A stretch of DNA of 64,000 nucleotides from Escherichia coli (GCF_011045215.1 NZ_CP049201.1), one strand, 5' to 3'. Counted from the stretch's first letter, positions 20,773 to 57,736 are shown. Notes: generated by a model not told the origin, from the sequence alone. Numbers and translations are program-made.

Positions 20773-20917
20773 ATAATTAATTTGTATCTACAGAATATTA
20801 ATGCTCAGGCTGGTTAACCCCGGCCTTTTTATTTTATATACAGACGTTCCTGTGAGACTATTGACATATAAAAGCCCGTCTTGCTAATCTTTTCCCGCTT
20901 TAATGTCGCTGTATGCG

Positions 20918-21102
20918 ACCATCCAAATCCCCAGTAGTCTGAGAGGGGAGCCTTCGGGCGGCTACCAGCCAATGCTTTAACGATCTGAGAGAAGCGCCTT
21001 CGGGTGATCGTAATGTTCTCGTAGCCTGGAAGAGAACGCCTTACGTGGCGGTACATCCGTTTAACCTCTGGGAACGGATATCACGGAACCGTGATTGAGG
21101 TC
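20918..21102 (+). repeat. Copy A of a ~185-bp structured direct repeat (four predicted hairpins, two with CUUCGG loops)
   Basis: Seen directly: about 88% identical to 23232..23416; contains GAGCC-UUCG-GGC and GCGCC-UUCG-GGUG hairpins plus a 7-bp stem ATCCGTT/AACGGAT. Confidence 0.8.
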
Positions 21103-21232: not shown

Positions 21233-21517
21233 TTAATCTGTTCGGGCATTCGCCCCGGGCTTCTTACGACTGTACGCACTGCATAAGGCCATCTGAAATC
21301 TGGCCGCTTGCGTGCGTATGTGGAGTTTGAAGCTGCGCGGCGTCACTTTTGTCGGCGTGTAACGATGACAAAGTGACGCATGCGCGTCTGCTTTACGAAC
21401 CCGCACAAACCGTCGCGTCACGGGATGTTTTTTAACATTTGAAGAAGTGACCAGACGTGAGAGTGTTTTTTCAACCTTCTCTGCAAACGTACAGACGATA
21501 CCGTGAATAACGTTCAT
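21233..21517 (-). CDS. Hypothetical ORF (94 aa), possibly a gene remnant
   Basis: ORF between repeat A and the recombinase; overlaps a second ORF (21061..21279) in another frame, which could indicate a frameshifted pseudogene. Confidence 0.2.
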   Translation of the reverse strand: MNVIHGIVCTFAEKVEKTLSRLVTSSNVKKHPVTRRFVRVRKADAHASLCHRYTPTKVTPRSFKLHIRTQAARFQMALCSAYSRKKPGANARTD

Positions 21518-21762
21518 CGACCGTTCTTCTTGCAGAATTTTATTGTTTTTTAAGGAGTTTTATGTAGTGAGATGCCGAACCGGCGATACCACTTATTAGG
21601 GGTGGTATCGGGGGCGACCTGGAAACAGGTACAGCGAATGCTGCAGTCGGTGTGCAACACCGGTTTGTTACCCCTCAATACCTAAACAGTCTGCGCTACC
21701 CTGGCGCTCAGGCACTCATTACCCGAAGGATCGCAACGCTTAACCGTGTCGCCAGGGAGAAT

Positions 21763-23109: not shown

Positions 23110-23155
23110 CTTGACATCCATCTTTTGTGCCTTAAAAATATACAGGCTAACTTTG

Positions 23156-23416
23156 TTACCTTCGGGTGACCATCCAATGTTTCGGTAGTCTGAGAGAAAC
23201 GCCTTCGGGTGACTACAGTTATCTTCGGATAACCATCCAAATCCCCGGTAGTCTGAGAGGGGAGCCTTCGGGCGACTACCAGCCAATGCTTTGACGATCT
23301 GAGAAAAGCGCCTTCGGGTGATCGTAATGTCTCCGTAGCCTGAAAGGGGACGCCTTAGAGGGTGGTACATCCGTTTAACCTCTGGAAACGGATATCACGG
23401 AACAGTGATCGAGGTC
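23156..23416 (+). repeat. Copy B of the ~185-bp structured direct repeat (23232..23416) plus an extra partial unit (23156..23231)
   Basis: Seen directly: aligns with 20918..21102 over its full length with scattered substitutions; the upstream partial duplication repeats the CCATCCAA...GGTAGTCTGAGAG...GCCTTCGGGTG unit. Confidence 0.8.
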
Positions 23417-28504: not shown

Positions 28505-28752
28505 TTTTTTATCACTACGCCAGTCTTCGGGCTGGCGTTATTATATTTGCGTTGCTTGTTATTGGGGGCGGTTTCTATGTACGTCAGGAGCATTTTTAAA
28601 CCGATGTGGATAAGTAACTGATTGATTCATCGTGATCAGCTATCGCTTCTAAGTTATTGCTTTTCTCTTATCGCATTTAGGTTATCTCATGTCCCTAAAG
28701 GTCTGCCAAACACCGTATAGCGTGGGAGTACACCCTACCGCGATAACGTAAC

Positions 28753-28768
28753 CGTACAATATTGTACG
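28753..28768. promoter_or_regulatory. 16-bp perfect palindrome CGTACAATATTGTACG (candidate operator) about 95 bp upstream of the hydrolase gene
   Basis: Seen directly in the intergenic region 28505..28863. Confidence 0.4.
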
Positions 28769-28863
28769 TTTCCCAAACGCAGCTCTGTGGGGGAAATTTG
28801 GGTTAAGTATCGACCGGTGTATGATAGGGCAATATTTAACCAGAGAAATTAAAAGGATTTGTT

Positions 28864-31089
28864 ATGTCTAAGCCGGAAAACGGCCAACAGCTGCCCGCCA
28901 TCTGTTGGCCGGTGCCTAAAAATAACCGGGGCGGGGAGTTCAGTAATCTCGAGGAGATGTTGGCGCATCTGGAGGGCGAGGCCACCGGGCACTGGCTGAT
29001 TGGCCGTAATGGTATGTGGCACGGGGGAATTCATATCACGGATATCACGACTCCGTGGTGTGCGCTCAGCGGTCAGTCGATGAATGAGGCGGTGGATTTT
29101 CCTGTGCCGTTTAAGGGAGAGCAGCCCGTGCGCTGCATGGCGGATGGTGAGGTGGTGGCGTACCGGATAAACCGGGATTCTCTCAGCGTGCCGTGGTACT
29201 GGGGGGATTTACACTACTCCGGGTCTTTTGTACTCATTCGCCATCGTATTCAGCCAGGGGAAACGGCAGAGAGCGGGCTGACCTTTTACACCCTGTATAT
29301 GCACCTCGCGCCCTGGCTGGCTTACCCGGAGCAGGACAGTACGGCGTTTAAGGTCGCAGACAGACAGTATCTGAATGCGTATGCGGACGCGTCCCGGCAG
29401 TGGGTGGTGGCAGAGTTGCCACCCGGTACACGTGTGATATGGGACAAAGCGGTAAGTGCAGACACCATGACAGGGAGCAACGGTCGGCAGTATGCGCGCG
29501 TTACGCTGGCGGAGCCGGTGACGGGCAGGATGAACCTGAACGCCGGAGACCGGGTATGGACAGTATGCGATAAAGGGAATCTGGTTCCGGTTCGTGACAG
29601 TATCATCCGTCCGGCGTGGTGGTCGCCGTTCCTGCCGCCGTCACGCGAAACGGTACAGTTTGATACGGTGGTGTGTCCGACACCTTACCCGATTAAAGCC
29701 GGTGCCCCGGTGGGGCATCTGGGCTATTTTCAGGTACCCACGGATAACGGGCATGAAAAACGCTATCAGGTGCATATCGAATGCCTGACAACGGACGACC
29801 TGCCGCGCTTCCTGAGCAACCCGGAAGGTGTGGGGCGTGACACTCCCGCCTTTGCCCGTTGTCCGAAGGATATACCGGTGTATCTGAAATATACGGACGG
29901 AGAAATACACAAGAGCCTGGTAACCACGGAGAGCGAAACGGTGATGGCGCTGTCAGGTCAGGTGGTGACGGACAAAGAGGGTAAACGCTACTGGTCGGGG
30001 GGAGGGGTATCACGCGGACTGCTGGCGGAGTCAGATGTGCAGTTGTTATCCAGGTATGACCTGGCTGACCGGGGTTTTGAGGCCACGGAGGATAACCCGG
30101 TGAGCTTTGACCATCTCGACGGAAAGAGACAGCCGAAGGGGCTGGTGAGGACGATTTTTGAGCGTTTTTTCAACGTGGCGGATAATGACGGTAAGCTCTA
30201 CAGCAAAATAGTGGCATTCAACTACCGGCAGCTGCTGGACCAGATTGATGACGCCAAATCCCCCCGGTATAACCCGGAACTGTACCGGCGCGCGGTACAG
30301 AACCCGTCAATGCGTGAGCATCTGTATCGTTTGTGCGTGAAACATCCCAGCGAGTGGTATTACTCGTCGGAGTCTTCGGTATGGAAAGCATTTTTTACGC
30401 CCCAACTGAAAAGAGACGCCACGGAGTGGTACGCCTACAGTATGAAATTTTTGACGGATCTCCGCTGGATGTACCGTGTGGCCGGAATGGTGGAAAATCC
30501 GTGGCATATGCACCCACTGGTATTTCTTGATGCTATTAATGATATAGGTATGACTCTCGATGAAGCCAGAGTTCGGGCATTTATGAGAATGATTCGAGTT
30601 GGCGAAGGGACTGTTGGTGAGGTTGGGTATGAAACATTGTTTGGTAAGCAGTCATTCATAAAAGATTATCATAAAGATTTTAGTGATCACCCGAACATAA
30701 TAATTACTAGAGGTACATTAAAGTCTTCTGCGGCTGGAGCATATCAAGTAATGGGTTATACATGGAATGATCCTAACATGTTGTTTTATCGCAAAAAATA
30801 TGGGATCGTGGATTTTTCTCCGAAATCACAAGATGAGTTTTGTGTGCTAATCCTTAAATATAAAAGGAAAGGGGCTTTAAAACTTATCATTGATGGTGAC
30901 ATTGATGGGGCTTTAGATATTTTGAGTTACGAATGGGCAAGTCTTCCCCCTGCCAGATACCCTCAACCAACCAAGAGTAAGAGTGAGGTTATGTCCTTAT
31001 ACAATAAGTATTTATTAGAAGAGCTCTTAGGGGAGACAGATCTTCACCTGCCAATCGGCTACATAAAACAAGTTTATAATGGTGTGTAA
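28864..31089 (+). CDS. Multidomain cell-wall hydrolase-like protein (741 aa) with C-terminal lambda-lysozyme-like (GH104-type lytic transglycosylase) domain
   Basis: C-terminal residues ~570-741 align by eye with recalled phage lambda R motifs (VGEGT..GYETLF, DFSDHP, AAGAYQVMGYTW, DFSPKSQDEF, KGALKLIIDGDIDGAL, EWASLP). N-terminal region has an M23-like H-x-G motif (WHGGIHITD), unconfirmed. GC drops sharply near 30540. Confidence 0.7.
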   Translation: MSKPENGQQLPAICWPVPKNNRGGEFSNLEEMLAHLEGEATGHWLIGRNGMWHGGIHITDITTPWCALSGQSMNEAVDFPVPFKGEQPVRCMADGEVVAYRINRDSLSVPWYWGDLHYSGSFVLIRHRIQPGETAESGLTFYTLYMHLAPWLAYPEQDSTAFKVADRQYLNAYADASRQWVVAELPPGTRVIWDKAVSADTMTGSNGRQYARVTLAEPVTGRMNLNAGDRVWTVCDKGNLVPVRDSIIRPAWWSPFLPPSRETVQFDTVVCPTPYPIKAGAPVGHLGYFQVPTDNGHEKRYQVHIECLTTDDLPRFLSNPEGVGRDTPAFARCPKDIPVYLKYTDGEIHKSLVTTESETVMALSGQVVTDKEGKRYWSGGGVSRGLLAESDVQLLSRYDLADRGFEATEDNPVSFDHLDGKRQPKGLVRTIFERFFNVADNDGKLYSKIVAFNYRQLLDQIDDAKSPRYNPELYRRAVQNPSMREHLYRLCVKHPSEWYYSSESSVWKAFFTPQLKRDATEWYAYSMKFLTDLRWMYRVAGMVENPWHMHPLVFLDAINDIGMTLDEARVRAFMRMIRVGEGTVGEVGYETLFGKQSFIKDYHKDFSDHPNIIITRGTLKSSAAGAYQVMGYTWNDPNMLFYRKKYGIVDFSPKSQDEFCVLILKYKRKGALKLIIDGDIDGALDILSYEWASLPPARYPQPTKSKSEVMSLYNKYLLEELLGETDLHLPIGYIKQVYNGV

Positions 31090-31527
31090 ATGAAAAATAT
31101 ATTCCTTATATTGATATTTGTATCATCATTTACTTATGCTGGTTCTGATTTTGGAACTTGGGGAACATCATGTGATGATAATGGGTTCATTCTTTCATTA
31201 AAAGAAGATTCATCTCCATTTGTTGTTAGTGATAATCAGATAGTTGTATCCATACATTCAAGAAGGATTAACCATAAAGTTATTGATGTTTTTTTTGATG
31301 ATACATTAGATCTTGGGATAGGAGGCATGGGGTTTAACTGGGGGGATGTTGATAAAACCAAAAAAATAGCCGAGTTAACATATTCTGAAAATAATAAATG
31401 GCTGATGAAATGGTTTGGTTTTTGGGATGCAAAAAAAAAGACACGTTTTTGGGTGAAAGAGCCTGATTTTATCCAAACATACGCAAAAAATAACGTCATA
31501 ACATTGATTAAATGCGAAGAACAGTGA
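31090..31527 (+). CDS. Secreted small protein (145 aa), candidate immunity protein for the upstream hydrolase
   Basis: ATG directly after the upstream stop (TAAATG); signal peptide MKNIFLILIFVSSFTYA; AT-rich like the hydrolase C-terminus. Confidence 0.5.
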   Translation: MKNIFLILIFVSSFTYAGSDFGTWGTSCDDNGFILSLKEDSSPFVVSDNQIVVSIHSRRINHKVIDVFFDDTLDLGIGGMGFNWGDVDKTKKIAELTYSENNKWLMKWFGFWDAKKKTRFWVKEPDFIQTYAKNNVITLIKCEEQ

Positions 31528-31582
31528 TGGTTTGACTGCAATGGCTAAATTGAGGCAGCAATAATTTCAGGAAAACAAAAAT

Positions 31583-31760
31583 GATCTTCTTGAGATCCTT
31601 TTTTCTGAGAGTAGTTTCTTGTCCTGTAAATGAAAAAACGCCGGAAGGCGGGTTGGTTCGGGTTCGTTGATCTACCAAATCTTTGAAGCTGGGCGGTAAC
31701 AGGACTCTATGTGGGAGACAGTTACCAATACATTATAGTACTTCCCAGTAATCTGCTGAT
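31583..31760. other. Remnant resembling a ColE1/p15A-type plasmid origin (RNA I/RNA II region)
   Basis: GATCTTCTTGAGATCC, CTGTAAATGAAAAAACGCCGGAAGGCGGG and GATCTACCAAATCTTTGAAGCTGGGCGGTAACAGG parallel recalled p15A/pBR322 ori strings in the same order; diverged, not verified by alignment. Confidence 0.4.
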
Positions 31761-31849
31761 CAGACCGGGCCAGCCAGAGATGCAGGTCGGTGATGATCAA
31801 CCGTCGTATACGAATCTGTATGGTGTTGAGCTGCTGTCCCGATTTAGTA

Positions 31850-32590
31850 TCAGACTGGATGTAGTGAATCTGTTTTTCCGGACGAGCATTTCATGGTGAA
31901 TTGTCGTGGTGTTATATTAAAGTGTTGTCTGAAAAGATAGACAAAGTAGGATGTACTGGAATAGCCACATTTTTCAGCAACGTGTTTCACTGAGTATTTC
32001 TGTTCCAGTAAGTTTCTGGCTGAAAACATTCGTACTTCGAGTAAAATTTTACTGAAACATGTGTTTTCAGACAGAAGTTTTTTCTTTATCAGACTTTCAC
32101 TCATATATACATATTCAGATATATCGCGCAACTTCCATTGTCGTGATATATCTGACAGTAATATGTTTCGTACTTTTCCTGAAAAAGTTGGGATGCCAGA
32201 TGAAAGGAAGTTTATTAAAGCGGGGCGGGTATTAAAAATTGACAATAACGAGAAACAGACAGCTTCTCTGAATTCCGGATGGATATGATTTTCATAATTT
32301 ATATTGTTTATGAGTTCTGACAACACTTCCGGGTAGGCAAAACATTTTTTCAGAAAATGAACAGGCCCGTCGTAGGTTGGTTTTTCCCCTGTATGGCGAT
32401 GGTGTATATAATGGTTTACTGTATCTTCATTCAGAGGTACTTCAGTGAATTTATCTGAAAATGTAAGAAAGCTTGTCATCAAAGATGGATTAACAAGAAG
32501 AATATCGCCATAATTTAATATTAATACATCATTAAAAAAACGGAAATTAAATGATCTTTTTATCAGTATGAAGGAGCAGATGATAGTCAT
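31850..32590 (-). CDS. AraC-family transcriptional regulator, AppY/EnvY-like
   Basis: C-terminal HTH region (ERQWKLRDISEYVYMSESLIKKKL ... VAEKCGYSSTSYFVYLFRQHFNITP) closely parallels recalled E. coli AppY ([24 protein letters not shown] ... [25 protein letters not shown]). AT-rich. Confidence 0.7.
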   Translation of the reverse strand: MTIICSFILIKRSFNFRFFNDVLILNYGDILLVNPSLMTSFLTFSDKFTEVPLNEDTVNHYIHHRHTGEKPTYDGPVHFLKKCFAYPEVLSELINNINYENHIHPEFREAVCFSLLSIFNTRPALINFLSSGIPTFSGKVRNILLSDISRQWKLRDISEYVYMSESLIKKKLLSENTCFSKILLEVRMFSARNLLEQKYSVKHVAEKCGYSSTSYFVYLFRQHFNITPRQFTMKCSSGKTDSLHPV

Positions 32591-32873
32591 AATTCTTTGC
32601 GCTGTTACAGTTTTTTATTTATGTAAGTATGGATGAAGGGAAAAAAAAGGAAAAATATTTTGTTTTTTTGTGATTGCTGTCACGTAATAAATAAAAAGCA
32701 ATTGATTATATTGCTGTATTGTGCTGTAAAGAAGAGTTAAGCTCTGTCTGGTACTGATTTATTCCGGGGGACGGAGGGGCATGGCAGATGAAGGGATGAA
32801 CAGGGACTTTTTGTTTAATTCGTTGACAGCAACAGTCATAAGAGAAAGCAACAATTCACATATGGGGCAGTTT

Positions 32874-33569
32874 ATGAAAACTATCTTCATAGCAGAGCCT
32901 GTCGTGACGGCAGGTAACAGTAACAGGCTGATTGCGGTGGAGATTCTGAGCCGATTTTATTCTGTTAACGGAAAACAACTTCCTACCGTGAAAACGCTGA
33001 ATATGTTTACAGCAGAGATGAAAATTGATTTGCTGGAATTACAGATAAGAAAAATAATAAGTAAAGCTTCTTTTTTTAGTAAGCATAATATACTGTGTTC
33101 CCTTAACGTCGATTATGATACATGTCAGTATATATACAGAAATAAAAATATTCAGGATATAATAAAGTCATATGATTTTATTGTTCTTGAAATTTCTGAA
33201 ACATACCCGGTCATAAAGGCTGATGATGCAATAATTCCTTTTCTCATTAATCTGTCAGAACATATCTGGCTGGATGATTTAGGGAGTGGTAACAGTACAA
33301 TACATACGTTGATAAGAAATAAATTCCAGGCAGTGAAACTTGACAAAAATTTTTTTCAAATACATAGTATGAAACCGCATTTTGCTGCATTAATAGACAA
33401 TATAAAAAGATTATGCCCTCTGGTTATTGCCGAGGGTGTTGAAAACAAGAATTATCTGCATGCTGCTTCAGGTGCTGGTTTATGGGGCGTTCAGGGATAT
33501 TATTTTCCATCAGTACCGCTTGAGGATATTCATCAGATAAAGTTGGATTTTTCTGAGAACATCAGCTGA
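32874..33569 (+). CDS. EAL-domain protein, YdiV-like (degenerate EAL; EIL instead of EAL)
   Basis: EAL-domain motifs (EILSRF, DDLGSGNST, KLDK, AEGVE, QGYYF); DDLGSGNSTIHTLIRNKFQAVKLDKNFFQ parallels recalled YdiV LGAGNSTMKAVFDGLFTRVMLDKSFIQ. Start chosen at ATG 32874; ORF-track start is 32781. Confidence 0.65.
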   Translation: MKTIFIAEPVVTAGNSNRLIAVEILSRFYSVNGKQLPTVKTLNMFTAEMKIDLLELQIRKIISKASFFSKHNILCSLNVDYDTCQYIYRNKNIQDIIKSYDFIVLEISETYPVIKADDAIIPFLINLSEHIWLDDLGSGNSTIHTLIRNKFQAVKLDKNFFQIHSMKPHFAALIDNIKRLCPLVIAEGVENKNYLHAASGAGLWGVQGYYFPSVPLEDIHQIKLDFSENIS

Positions 33570-33803: not shown

Positions 33804-34538
33804 ATGAGCTGTTTTTGTATTCATTTTAGCAGCCATCTCCATGATGGTATTGACAGTGGCTGTCCCGGTAAGAAATATGATATACACCGACCATTAAATA
33901 TGCTGGCGTTAAGCTGGCATAATACTTCTGGTCGCTATTCACTGGGGGGAAGTTATCAGAAAGATGATTCCGTGCAAATTTTAGGGGAATTAAATAAAAA
34001 ATTTAAGATCCGTGAAAGAGATTCTGCGAAAAGTCAGTTAAAATTTTTCTACGCTGAACTTGAGGGTTTTAATAAAGAAAAAAAGAGAAGGGCTGGGGAA
34101 CCTGATGATACCTATCTCCTTTCCGGACAGATATCATTTAATACACCTGATTTTGGAGCATTTGTCAGTGCGGGATATATTAATCATGCAATATCAGGAA
34201 CAAATGTAGATACCGATCGTTCTTATGTATATTCTCTGAGTATAGATCGTAATAAAGAACAAATGTACTCTTTTTAGACAGGATTTACATATAACATCAC
34301 ACCAGAATTAAGTGCAATGATGACCCATGGTTATGAATCCAGTCGTAAAGATGTAGAAATACAGGGGGCATGTATTTTGGGAGCAATGACTTACAATATC
34401 AATAATGGACCTAATATATTTCTTTCTGCAGACAGATGCAGAGAAAAAAGAGATGGCAGCCGTTTTGGTGATCGTCTTAATTATTGGGATGTTAAATTAA
34501 GTATTAGGTATGATATATATATATATGATTCTCTGTAA
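33804..34538 (+). pseudogene. Interrupted ORF: two same-frame ORFs separated by a single in-frame TAG at 34278-34280; no signal peptide
   Basis: Seen directly: 33804..34277 and 34317..34538 are in the same frame and read through apart from one amber codon; alternating hydrophobic pattern suggests a beta-barrel protein remnant. Confidence 0.35.
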
Positions 34539-34996
34539 AGAGGCAGATGCTGAATCCATTCACCCTGTAGTCCATGATTTCGAATCTGGTAGGGTGTATT
34601 TATAACTGACAATATAATGAGGTAGTTCCGGTTTCTCTTGTGTTTATAAATTTCTCATGTCTTTGTTAAGCAACTGTTTGTATTATTCTGATTGACTTAT
34701 TTTCACTGGTGTTAAGACCACAGGTATTGTCAGTATTCGAACAGTATTTCACGAAATTCTTATACAGTATTGCACGGTTTTCCGGACGTTTAAACTTCAA
34801 ATGGTTAAACTGGCTTCACAACAGGAGCTTCTGTTGTCTGTATTGTTCGAAAATACGGGGATACCGTATTTTCTGAGTTATATTATACAATCTTGTTTTA
34901 TAAAATACCCCTGTGCGAATGAACACACAGGGGTATTTTATATTTCAGTTTTTCACCATAGAGTATGAACAGATTGCAAATATAATCCCGACAATA

Positions 34997-57561: not shown

Positions 57562-57736
57562 GCAATAACGGTACGACAGCTGTGTCGTGCCGTTTGTTTT
57601 TTCTGCGATAGTCACAAAGGTAATAGTTGAAATTCCCCTGCCACCTGGCAAAATATCCGTTCAACCATCAGCTTTGCAGGACGACCTGCAAACGCGTCTT
57701 TTCACCGGGGACGGCCCCAATTCTCCGGAGCCTGAT

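What the first reader, a model, noticed from the sequence alone, without database searches (positions are those of the whole stretch)
31583..31760. ColE1/p15A-like replication-origin remnant embedded in the island
Three consecutive blocks match recalled ColE1-family ori strings in the correct order (the RNA I/RNA II overlap region), but are diverged. This suggests a small plasmid or fragment was captured into the cargo and may mark the recombination junction that brought in the AT-rich cargo.
Basis: partly seen in the sequence, partly recalled or inferred. Interest (0 to 1): 0.5.

Follow-up and report, generated by a model that had tools for sequence, protein, structure and literature searches.

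The report
Decayed ColE1 origin stump in ICE
A 165-base, mutationally decayed piece of a ColE1-type plasmid replication origin sits in an E. coli integrative conjugative element, as the scar left when a small toxin/immunity plasmid fused with the element and lost its replicon; it is real but most likely inert.

Summary
Window 31572/31578-31739 is homologous to the 5' control region of ColE1-family origins: the RNA II promoter, the first ~110 nt of RNA II, and so the complement of RNA I. A profile of 11 plasmid origins gives E 2.7e-42, and 4484 plasmid records match. Nothing further of the origin is present. The last 21 nt of the reported interval (31740-31760, including TAATCTGCTG) are not homologous.

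The stump is the right end of a ~3.2-kb plasmid-derived insert in the cargo of a PFGI-1-class ICE at tRNA-Phe (pheU) of E. coli. The insert consists of a Tn3-like miniature inverted-repeat element (28564-28785), a 741-aa toxin with a phage-lambda-lysozyme (GH104) C-terminal domain, its signal-peptide immunity gene, and the origin stump. Positions 28790-31601 are 94% identical to 6.7-7.8-kb Rop+ E. coli plasmids.

The RNA I gene is decayed. It lacks its promoter, 6 of 32 consensus pairs are broken, and 2 bp are deleted from the terminator stem. Rfam RNAI scores 14.7 bits against 39-61 for plasmid copies.

A second ICE allele carries a different, longer stump with an intact RNA I, which shows repeated plasmid-ICE recombination. 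Verdict: an ordinary, informative molecular scar.

The parts
28564..28785 (.). Remnant of a ~220-bp miniature inverted-repeat element with Tn3-like terminal repeats. It lies between the end of the conserved ICE backbone (~28547) and the plasmid-derived module. The window copy has a ~12-nt deletion in its left repeat.
   Evidence: It is 93% identical to copies in 2159 plasmid records, mostly conjugative and often with several copies per record. Intact copies have ~36-nt terminal inverted repeats beginning GGGGTCGGTTTGGGAAACGG..., and only the ends pair. ICE relatives without the toxin lack it. A 76% relative sits in ColE1 colicin plasmid L003.
28790..31601 (+). Plasmid-derived toxin/immunity module: promoter region, toxin, immunity gene, and the spacer up to the -35 box of the RNA II promoter.
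   Evidence: 93.9% identity over 2812 bp to pRHB39-C22_5 (CP057044.1) and to six further 7-18-kb Rop/ProQ contigs, always with the same end points.
28864..31089 (+). 741-aa toxin gene. A conserved ~560-aa N-terminal region is followed by a C-terminal phage-lambda-lysozyme-type (GH104 lytic transglycosylase) domain at residues ~571-703.
   Evidence: PDB 1AM7/3D3D lambda lysozyme, E 6e-18. PHROG endolysin, E 1.5e-25. Homologs keep the N-terminal 75% at 92-95% identity but carry other peptidoglycan hydrolase C-termini: pesticin-like PF16754, VgrG3-like PF21277, GH19 and GH73.
31090..31527 (+). 145-aa candidate immunity gene with an N-terminal signal peptide (MKNIFLILIFVSSFTYA|GS). Its start abuts the toxin stop codon.
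   Evidence: ORF list. No family match. The exact protein occurs in 180 blocks of public assemblies, and all 10 places shown are in this same ICE context. Its role is inferred from its position and from the periplasmic target of the toxin.
31578..31739 (+). ColE1-family origin stump, covering profile positions 3-168 of 575.
31590..31617 (+). Relic of the RNA II (primer) promoter: -35 TTGAGA (31590-31595), a 16-nt spacer (17 nt in all plasmid relatives; one T lost), and -10 TAGTTT (31612-31617; TAATCT in plasmids, TAGTCT in other ICE copies).
   Evidence: Alignment A2. Position 31616 is polymorphic. The identification as the RNA II promoter rests on established ColE1 knowledge.
31630..31735 (-). 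Decayed RNA I gene (complement of the RNA II 5' end). It has three degraded stem-loops, a terminator stem reduced to CGCC/GGCG (31639-31650) and the U-run template at 31633-31638. Its own promoter is missing.
   Evidence: Rfam RNAI scores 14.7 bits here (GA 47) against 38.7-61 bits in 11 plasmid homologs. It keeps 26/32 consensus pairs against 30-32/32 in plasmids, and its MFE is -20.5 against -39 to -47 kcal/mol. The fold z-score is -1.2.
31740..31849 (.). Right junction and unmatched spacer between the origin stump and the stop codon of the convergent YdeO-like AraC regulator gene (31850-32590, minus strand).
   Evidence: No plasmid match at E<=1. No origin-profile hit. NCBIfam gives YdeO-like AraC, E 3e-54, below the curated cutoff.

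Best explanation
The feature is a non-functional scar of plasmid capture. A small ColE1-type plasmid carried a peptidoglycan-degrading toxin gene and its immunity gene directly upstream of its origin, which is the layout of colicin plasmids. This plasmid became joined to the cargo region of a PFGI-1/ICEclc-class integrative conjugative element at tRNA-Phe (pheU) of E. coli. A later deletion removed the replicon and kept the toxin/immunity pair. The retained origin piece comprises the RNA II promoter and the first ~110 nt of the primer transcript, which is the same DNA as the antisense RNA I gene. The deletion cut between the RNA I start and its promoter. The rest of the origin is gone: the remainder of RNA II, the RNase H/primer site and rop. 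The stump therefore cannot replicate anything. It has since drifted, with pair-breaking substitutions in all three RNA I stem-loops, a 2-bp loss in the terminator stem and a 1-nt loss in the RNA II promoter spacer. Shown: the homology, its extent, the plasmid origin of the adjoining 2.8 kb, the structural decay, and the presence of the same scar in many E. coli assemblies. Inferred: the joining mechanism. The Tn3-like miniature element sits exactly at the left junction. The same element also cuts another ColE1 origin fragment in an IncF plasmid. Together these suggest either cointegrate formation by that element or recombination between two copies of it, followed by deletion.
For: Homology and extent. 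Plasmid origin of 28790-31601, with synteny of toxin, immunity and origin. Colicin plasmids place the lysis or immunity gene immediately before the same origin start. No other plasmid backbone segment (rop, mob or the rest of the origin) is present in the 64-kb window; the only other match is an unexplained ~95-bp, 72% similarity at 21366-21460. Decay: Rfam RNAI 14.7 bits against 38.7-61; 26/32 pairs against 30-32/32, with half the folding energy. Of the roughly 7 changes in stems relative to the closest plasmid (EC14 p3), 6 break pairs. The remnant is no more conserved than its flanks among 11 ICE copies: 5 variable columns in 168, against 4/242 and 2/104. The consensus scan calls neither a promoter nor a terminator there. 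Direction of transfer: the RNA I/II region is a plasmid-specific function shared by thousands of plasmids, and the ICE copy is truncated. ICE relatives lacking the insert end their homology at 28543-28547. A second ICE allele (L038/L039) has the same left junction, but its right half is 100% identical to a pRHB39-type plasmid. That allele carries a different, longer origin stump (profile 5-232) with an intact RNA I at 60.3 bits. This shows that plasmids recombine into this ICE locus and leave origin stumps. In IncF plasmid pSTEC2018_166-a, a DUF2235/DUF2931 gene pair is followed by a ColE1 origin fragment (profile 3-423) cut exactly by the left repeat of the same miniature element.
Against: No sampled plasmid has both the window's toxin allele and the window's origin lineage. 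The toxin module is closest to pRHB39-type plasmids (94%), while the stump beyond 31601 is closest to EC14 p3 (90%), so the true donor is unsampled or mosaic. No PLSDB plasmid carries the miniature element directly upstream of the toxin. No second copy of the element and no target-site duplication survive in the window, and mobility of the element was not demonstrated (no duplications were seen at L024/L025). The cointegrate step therefore remains an inference. The RNA II promoter hexamers and the three RNA I loop sequences are still close to those of EC14 p3, so residual transcription or RNA-RNA pairing cannot be excluded from sequence alone.
Confidence: 0.85

Rival explanations
1. The stump is retained because it still works in trans. 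Either a truncated RNA II from the surviving promoter or an RNA I-like transcript pairs with the control RNAs of related bacteriocin plasmids. It would then act as an ICE-borne incompatibility or copy-number determinant.
For: The -35 TTGAGA and the T/A/T key positions of the -10 survive. The loop sequences of stem-loops 2 and 3 are identical to EC14 p3, and loop 1 differs by one base in the window only. The sister allele L038/L039 has a fully intact RNA I with its promoter. Cloned RNA I genes are a classical incompatibility determinant (established ColE1 knowledge).
Against: In the window allele the RNA I promoter is deleted. Six of 32 pairs are broken, the terminator stem is cut to 4 bp, the Rfam score is 14.7 bits and the fold z-score is -1.2. 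There is no excess conservation among ICE copies, and the hairpin itself is polymorphic at 31649 and 31652. A single chromosomal copy would be outnumbered by a multicopy plasmid.
Confidence: 0.06
2. A linear plasmid fragment was inserted directly by illegitimate recombination, for example after transformation or conjugative mobilisation. On this reading the miniature element is an unrelated neighbour. This rival concerns only the joining step; it shares the 'inert scar' conclusion of the best explanation.
For: No second element copy and no target duplication is present. The right junction (31739/31740) shows no repeat or IS end. 28790 is also where two unrelated plasmid backbones stop resembling each other, so it is a natural module boundary.
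Against: The element is absent from all ICE relatives that lack the toxin, so it arrived with or for the insert. It abuts the module within 4 nt. The same element truncates another ColE1 origin in an IncF plasmid, and a relative of it lives in a ColE1 colicin plasmid.
Confidence: 0.3
3. The transfer went the other way: the small plasmids picked up the toxin module and the neighbouring sequence from the ICE.
For: The toxin family also occurs in chromosomes of Salmonella, Citrobacter and Lelliottia.
Against: The segment 31602-31739 belongs to a replication-control region shared by more than 4000 plasmids and is required for their replication. In the ICE it is truncated and decayed.
Confidence: 0.02
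4. The similarity is due to chance or low complexity, or the segment is a working origin for the ICE.
For: None beyond the short recalled strings.
Against: E 2.7e-42 for a 165-nt collinear alignment. Only profile positions 3-168 of 575 are present, and there is no primer-processing region.
Confidence: 0.01

Closest known systems
ColE1/pMB1-family replication control region (RNA II primer promoter and antisense RNA I, Rfam RF00106)
   Same: The alignment to 11 plasmid origins is collinear from the conserved GATCTTCTTGAGATCC box (-35 of the RNA II promoter) through the three RNA I stem-loops to the RNA I start. It has the same orientation relative to the upstream toxin/immunity genes as in colicin plasmids.
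   Different: Only the first 29% of the origin is present. The RNA I promoter, the downstream RNA II structure, the RNase H/primer site and rop are all absent. The stems are broken, and the Rfam score is 14.7 bits, below the 47-bit gathering threshold.
Colicin and pesticin plasmids (for example pColK/pCol10-type plasmids; pesticin on the ColE1-type plasmid pPCP1 of Yersinia pestis)
   Same: A small ColE1-type replicon carries a modular toxin with a C-terminal killing domain and an adjacent immunity gene placed just upstream of the origin. As with pesticin, the killing domain is a phage-lysozyme-like peptidoglycan hydrolase and the immunity protein has a signal peptide.
   Different: No lysis gene and no obvious SOS box were seen. 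The N-terminal 560 aa match no described colicin domain. The export route and the killing activity are untested. Here the module is ICE-borne.
Second ICE allele (metagenome contigs L038/L039) and the ColE1 fragment in IncF plasmid pSTEC2018_166-a (L024)
   Same: In both, a ColE1 origin stump follows a toxin/immunity-type gene pair inside a large conjugative element, next to the same miniature element.
   Different: Those stumps are longer (profile 5-232 and 3-423), belong to other RNA I lineages, and retain an intact RNA I (60.3 bits in L038).
Tn3-derived inverted-repeat miniature elements (TIMEs) and Tn3-type cointegrates
   Same: The 28564-28785 element is ~220 bp, non-coding and multicopy in plasmids. 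In intact copies it has ~36-38-nt terminal repeats that start GGGG and end ...ACGTTAGG, like Tn3-family ends (resemblance judged from memory).
   Different: No target-site duplication or cognate transposase was identified. The window copy has a damaged left repeat. Family membership was not tested.

Membership tests
Functional ColE1-type origin of replication | RNA II (primer) promoter | tested here: inconclusive
   TTGAGA-16 nt-TAGTTT is at 31590-31617. All plasmid relatives have a 17-nt spacer and TAATCT. Activity was not measurable here.
Functional ColE1-type origin of replication | Full-length RNA II template (~550 nt), including the region that forms the persistent hybrid and the RNase H cleavage/primer site | tested here: not met
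   Only profile positions 3-168 of 575 are present. There is no further hit in 31001-32600, or elsewhere in the window with whole plasmids as queries.
Functional ColE1-type origin of replication | RNA I gene with its own promoter | tested here: not met
   Homology ends at 31739, at the RNA I start. The -10/-35 region that plasmids have (...AGTTTAGCC...CTTCAAG) is replaced by unrelated sequence. No promoter-like site is called on the minus strand.
RNA I (Rfam RF00106) | Three stem-loops plus a terminator, scoring at or above the family threshold | tested here: not met
   14.7 bits against GA 47, while plasmid homologs score 38.7-61. It keeps 26/32 consensus pairs, has a 2-bp deletion in the terminator stem, and its MFE is half that of the plasmid copies.
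ColE1-family origin-derived sequence (homology only) | Significant collinear sequence similarity to ColE1-family origins | tested here: met
   E 2.7e-42 with the nhmmer profile. 4484 plasmid records match, with best E 3e-33.
Colicin-like bacteriocin operon | Modular toxin with an exchangeable C-terminal killing domain and an adjacent cognate immunity gene, on a small plasmid next to the origin | tested here: met
   The N-terminal 75% is conserved, and the C-termini are swapped among GH104, pesticin-like, VgrG3-like, GH19 and GH73 domains. The position next to the origin is shown.
Colicin-like bacteriocin operon | Release from the producer, receptor-mediated uptake and killing; protection by the immunity protein | not testable with these tools
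   No lysis gene was seen. One preprint (10.64898/2026.07.22.739985) reports a 'pesticin' with its immunity gene on a small E. coli ED1a plasmid and detects the protein in the supernatant. Whether it belongs to this family was not checked.
Tn3-derived miniature element (TIME) | 38-bp Tn3-family terminal repeats and 5-bp target duplications | tested here: inconclusive
   Terminal repeats of ~36 nt are present in intact copies. No target duplication was seen at L024, L025 or the window. The similarity of the repeats to Tn3 ends was judged from memory.
PFGI-1/ICEclc-class integrative conjugative element | TraC (PFL_4706-type) ATPase, PFGI-1-class TraI relaxase, tyrosine recombinase next to a tRNA gene | tested here: met
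   TIGR03744 at 1394.8 bits and TIGR03760 at 206.8 bits, both above their cutoffs. An XerC/D-like recombinase is at 42238-43230, and tRNA-Phe is at 43423-43498.

The most novel reading that the evidence does not exclude
Origin stumps left in the ICE are not all inert. The ICE-borne RNA I is intact in the sister allele L038/L039, and a truncated RNA II decoy could still be made in the window allele. Either RNA could interfere with copy-number control of the small plasmids that carry the same toxin/immunity family. An ICE that has stolen a bacteriocin module would then also weaken or displace the donor plasmid type.
Probability: 0.07. Interest if true: 0.6.

Novelty: new member of a known kind. 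Interest (0 to 1): 0.27.

Why it matters
The stump itself does nothing, but it fixes the direction and manner of a gene transfer. A peptidoglycan-hydrolase toxin/immunity pair moved from multicopy ColE1-type plasmids into a self-transmissible chromosomal element. It did so more than once at the same locus, leaving two different stumps. This documents a route by which bacteriocin-like weapons become stably chromosomal and conjugatively mobile. It also points to a little-described polymorphic toxin family with a conserved 560-aa N-terminus and five kinds of cell-wall hydrolase C-termini. Finally, it flags a Tn3-like miniature element as a candidate agent that fuses small plasmids to large conjugative elements. 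For annotation, such stumps can trigger false 'ColRNAI replicon' calls in chromosomes and large plasmids.

Tried and rejected
- **Rfam:** at gathering thresholds, Rfam found no RNA I in the window. At E<=10 it gave a full-length hit on the right strand and at the right place, but of only 14.7 bits. I treated this as positional support only.
- **Origin past 31739:** I tested whether the origin continues past 31739, with an internal deletion, into 'TAATCTGCTG...CCAGCCAGAG'. This was rejected: the nhmmer profile with filters off finds nothing beyond 31735/31755, and BLAST of 31736-31870 against plasmids finds nothing.
- **Miniature element as a hairpin:** I tested whether the 28564-28785 element is a long-hairpin single-strand promoter of the Frpo type. 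This was rejected: only the ~35-nt ends pair in an intact copy, and the window copy does not fold better than shuffles.
- **Toxin family searches:** Pfam and NCBIfam gave nothing for the 741-aa protein. The PDB sequence search and PHROGs identified the C-terminal domain.
- **AraC regulator look-up:** the exact-sequence look-up of the AraC-family regulator found no context other than this ICE.
- **Right-junction scan:** the genome-contig scan for the right-junction 26-mer found nothing.
- **Literature:** searches found no description of this scar or of the toxin family.
- **E. coli complete genomes:** none of the 5426 complete genomes contains the insert.

Full report
**Setting**

The window comes from an Escherichia coli chromosome. 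The sequence to the right of position 43500 (cutA-dsbD-dcuA) is present in 5423 of 5426 complete E. coli genomes and is 100% identical to one bovine strain. A tRNA-Phe gene lies at 43423-43498 on the minus strand. Left of it sits an integrative conjugative element of the PFGI-1/ICEclc class. It has a TraC ATPase (TIGR03744, 1394.8 bits), a PFGI-1-class TraI relaxase (TIGR03760, 206.8 bits) and an XerC/D-like recombinase at 42238-43230. It also carries STAXI and EFASI RNA motifs.

The conserved ICE backbone is shared at ~97% with ICEs of strains such as KE41 and NC101. It ends at 28543-28547, just after an N6-methylase gene and its terminator hairpin. The backbone resumes near 38334. The finding lies in the variable cargo between these two points.

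Yes. BLASTN of 31540-31900 against 72,556 plasmids hits 4484 records, of which 3677 are typed as mobilizable. All hits fall on window 31578-31739, with 74-84% identity and E down to 3e-33. E. coli EC14 plasmid p3 is ~90% identical.

I built a profile from the origins of 11 of these plasmids (575 positions). It gives one hit: window 31572-31735 against profile positions 3-168, E 2.7e-42. Nothing else appears in 31001-32600, even with all filters off and E<=10. Whole-plasmid queries find no further backbone segment in the 64 kb; the only other match is an unexplained ~95-bp, 72% similarity at 21366-21460, listed among the passing observations.

Alignments A1 and A2 show collinearity from the conserved GATCTTCTTGAGATCC box (31583-31598) to ACATTATAGT (31730-31739). 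The last 21 nt of the reported interval, including TAATCTGCTG at 31750, are not homologous. In true origins that string is the -10 of the RNA II promoter, which here lies upstream at 31612-31617.

**Which part of the origin is it?**

By established ColE1 anatomy, the segment holds three things:
- The RNA II promoter: -35 TTGAGA at 31590-31595 and -10 TAGTTT at 31612-31617.
- The first ~110 nt of RNA II.
- On the other strand, the complete RNA I coding stretch down to its terminator (stem at 31639-31650, U-run template at 31633-31638).

The break at 31739/31740 falls between the RNA I start and its promoter. The promoter motifs seen in every plasmid relative are replaced by unrelated sequence. 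About 70% of the origin is absent, including the primer-processing region, and so is rop. The segment cannot be a working origin.

**Is the RNA I relic functional?**

The evidence says no.
- **Rfam score:** the RNAI model places a full-length hit at 31630-31733 on the minus strand, but it scores only 14.7 bits (gathering threshold 47). The homologous sites of all 11 plasmids score 38.7-61 bits, and the closest one, EC14 p3, scores 47.2.
- **Base pairs:** RNAalifold on the plasmid copies recovers the three stem-loops. The plasmids of this lineage keep 30-32 of the 32 pairs and fold at -39 to -47 kcal/mol. The window and two other ICE copies keep 25-26 of 32 and fold at -20.5 kcal/mol.
- **Where the damage lies:** broken pairs occur in all three stems, and a 2-bp deletion shortens the terminator stem to 4 bp.
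- **Fold stability:** the window sequence does not fold better than shuffles (z -1.2).
- **Direction of change:** relative to EC14 p3, six of about seven stem changes destroy pairs rather than compensate for each other.
- **RNA II promoter:** the ICE copies have also lost one T from the promoter spacer (16 nt against 17) and changed the -10.
- **Conservation:** among 11 ICE copies the stump has 5 variable columns in 168 nt. The flanks have 4 in 242 and 2 in 104. Two of the stump's variable sites lie in or next to the terminator hairpin. There is no sign of purifying selection.

**What came with it?**

Window 28790-31601 is 93.9% identical over 2812 bp to the 6678-bp E. coli plasmid pRHB39-C22_5, which encodes Rop and a ProQ/FinO protein. 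It matches six further 7-18-kb contigs of the same type, always with the same end points.

The block holds two genes:
- **A 741-aa ORF (28864-31089).** Residues 571-703 are homologous to phage lambda lysozyme, a GH104 lytic transglycosylase (PDB 1AM7/3D3D, E 6e-18; PHROG endolysin).
- **An abutting 145-aa ORF (31090-31527).** It has a signal peptide and no known family.

A protein search shows a polymorphic family. The N-terminal ~560 aa stay 92-95% identical while the C-terminus is exchanged among GH104, pesticin-like muramidase (PF16754), VgrG3-like (PF21277), GH19 and GH73 domains. Most members sit on 3-8-kb contigs.

In EC14 p3, and in colicin K/10-type plasmids, the toxin-associated genes end immediately before the same origin start. 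The arrangement in the window is therefore the standard layout of a bacteriocin plasmid, cut off inside the origin. Because the origin control region is a plasmid-specific function, the transfer went from plasmid to ICE.

The donor is not sampled exactly. Left of 31601 the best match is the pRHB39 type. Right of it the best match is the EC14 p3 type. The plasmids themselves are mosaics that switch partners at the GATCTTCTTGAGATCC box.

**Junctions and mechanism**

Between the end of the ICE backbone and the module lies a ~220-bp non-coding element (28564-28785). It is 93% identical to copies in 2159 plasmid records, mostly conjugative and often carrying several copies. Intact copies have ~36-nt terminal inverted repeats beginning GGGGTCGGTTTGGGAAACGG, and only these ends pair. 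The repeats resemble Tn3-family ends, though this is my own recollection and was not tested. The window copy has lost ~12 nt of its left repeat.

Three facts link the element to the capture:
- ICE relatives that lack the toxin also lack the element.
- A 76% relative lies beside rop in a ColE1 colicin plasmid.
- In IncF plasmid pSTEC2018_166-a, a DUF2235/DUF2931 gene pair is followed by a ColE1 origin fragment (profile 3-423) that is cut exactly by the left repeat of this same element.

I infer that the element, or recombination between two copies of it, fused the small plasmid to the ICE. A deletion then removed the replicon and the second copy. This step is inference. No target duplication or intermediate was found. 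The right junction has no recognisable feature and matches nothing.

**A second scar at the same locus**

A metagenome scan for the left-junction 24-mer returned contigs L038 and L039. They share the ICE backbone, the miniature element and the toxin promoter at 98.5-99.5% with the window. From about 30500 onward they are 100% identical to pRHB39, through the immunity gene and into a longer, pRHB39-type origin stump (profile 5-232). That stump keeps the RNA I promoter and an intact RNA I (Rfam 60.3 bits). After it, ~370 bp lead straight to the ICE backbone at 38334.

This is what integration of a resident plasmid through the shared toxin gene, followed by deletion, would produce. It shows that the process recurs. 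The toxin gene is also the most polymorphic part of the region among ICE copies (127 variable columns in 2226), and many variants carry the plasmid allele.

**Distribution**

The exact immunity protein is recorded in 180 blocks of public assemblies. All ten places read are this same ICE context, with the same stump, at 97.9-99.7% identity. None of the 5426 complete E. coli genomes carries it. The cargo downstream is plastic. Most relatives have AraC-EAL-GH2-MFS-UidC. The window keeps only a uidC fragment plus an autotransporter. L007 lacks 33822-38158. L040 joins 29108 to 32742.

The identification, the capture idea and the junction idea hold. The stump bounds only the plasmid-derived part. 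The AT-rich AraC/EAL block to its right is a separate module, found alone in other E. coli chromosomes and in a 214-kb plasmid.

**Verdict**

This is a genuine, decayed ColE1 origin stump and a new instance of a known kind of scar. Its intrinsic interest is low. The context is moderately interesting: a toxin family shuttling from plasmids to an ICE, two independent stumps, and a miniature element at the junctions. The most novel reading still open is that such stumps, above all the intact one in the sister allele, act as ICE-borne incompatibility determinants against the donor plasmids. I rate it at about 7%.

Noticed in passing
window 28864-31527; proteins P0001-P0120: The 741-aa protein belongs to a polymorphic toxin family. 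Its ~560-aa N-terminus is 92-95% conserved and matches no Pfam or NCBIfam family. The C-terminus is swapped among five peptidoglycan hydrolase types: GH104, pesticin-like, VgrG3-like, GH19 and GH73. Most members are on 3-8-kb E. coli contigs, and some are in Salmonella, Citrobacter and Lelliottia chromosomes. I found no description of the family.
   Followed up: partly
L038 11067-11296 and L039 2094-2323 (metagenome contigs ERZ1034925, ERZ1035044): A sister ICE allele has the same left junction. Its right half is 100% identical to a pRHB39-type plasmid. It carries a longer origin stump with an intact RNA I (Rfam 60.3 bits) and the RNA I promoter. The AraC/EAL cargo is absent.
   Followed up: yes
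window 28564-28785; L024 3490-3709; L025 3490-3715; L003 3736-3942: A ~220-bp non-coding element with ~36-nt Tn3-like terminal inverted repeats is present in 2159 plasmid records, mostly conjugative and often multicopy. In L024 it cuts a ColE1 origin fragment. In the window it abuts the captured module.
   Followed up: partly
L024 647-3474 (IncF plasmid pSTEC2018_166-a): A DUF2235/DUF2931 gene pair is followed by 406 bp of ColE1 origin (profile 3-423). This is another small-plasmid module fused into a large conjugative plasmid, and PLSDB types the record as also carrying a ColRNAI replicon.
   Followed up: partly
window 21366-21460: A ~95-bp stretch between the STAXI and EFASI motifs is 72-73% similar to a non-coding stretch of the small Rop plasmids (L001 2610-2704, L002 3918-4009, L003 4070-4164, L028 5134-5228). 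Its function is unknown.
   Followed up: no
window 20904-21057, 23154-23279, 21564-21721: Two STAXI RNA motifs (109.7 and 85.8 bits) and one EFASI motif (55 bits) lie in the ICE region that also encodes DUF1281 and an N6-methylase.
   Followed up: no
window 28864-31089 compared with L004-L013: The toxin gene is the most variable part of the region among ICE copies (127 variable columns in 2226, mainly in the N-terminal part). The immunity gene shows none, although these copies were retrieved through their exact immunity protein, so the absence of non-synonymous changes is by selection. Many toxin variants equal the plasmid allele, which suggests gene conversion with resident plasmids.
   Followed up: partly
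window 33804-34277: A 157-aa ORF matches only positions 199-329 of the 421-position UidC glucuronide porin model. Related ICE copies carry a full GH2-MFS-UidC cluster here, so the window has a deletion remnant next to an 850-aa AIDA-I/MisL-type autotransporter (34997-37549, minus strand).
   Followed up: partly
L040 (metagenome contig ERZ1034669, 27.4 kb): A deletion variant of the same ICE joins window position 29108, inside the toxin gene, directly to 32742, just upstream of the EAL ORF (32781-33569). It lacks most of the toxin, the immunity gene, the origin stump and the AraC gene.
   Followed up: no
window 57673-57719: A guanidine-II (mini-ykkC) riboswitch hit (49.3 bits) lies in the core chromosome, outside the island.
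   Followed up: no
L019 250-335 (E. coli M15 plasmid C, 6039 bp): A tRNA-like hit (41.6 bits, above the gathering score) lies just upstream of the ColE1 origin of a small plasmid.
   Followed up: no
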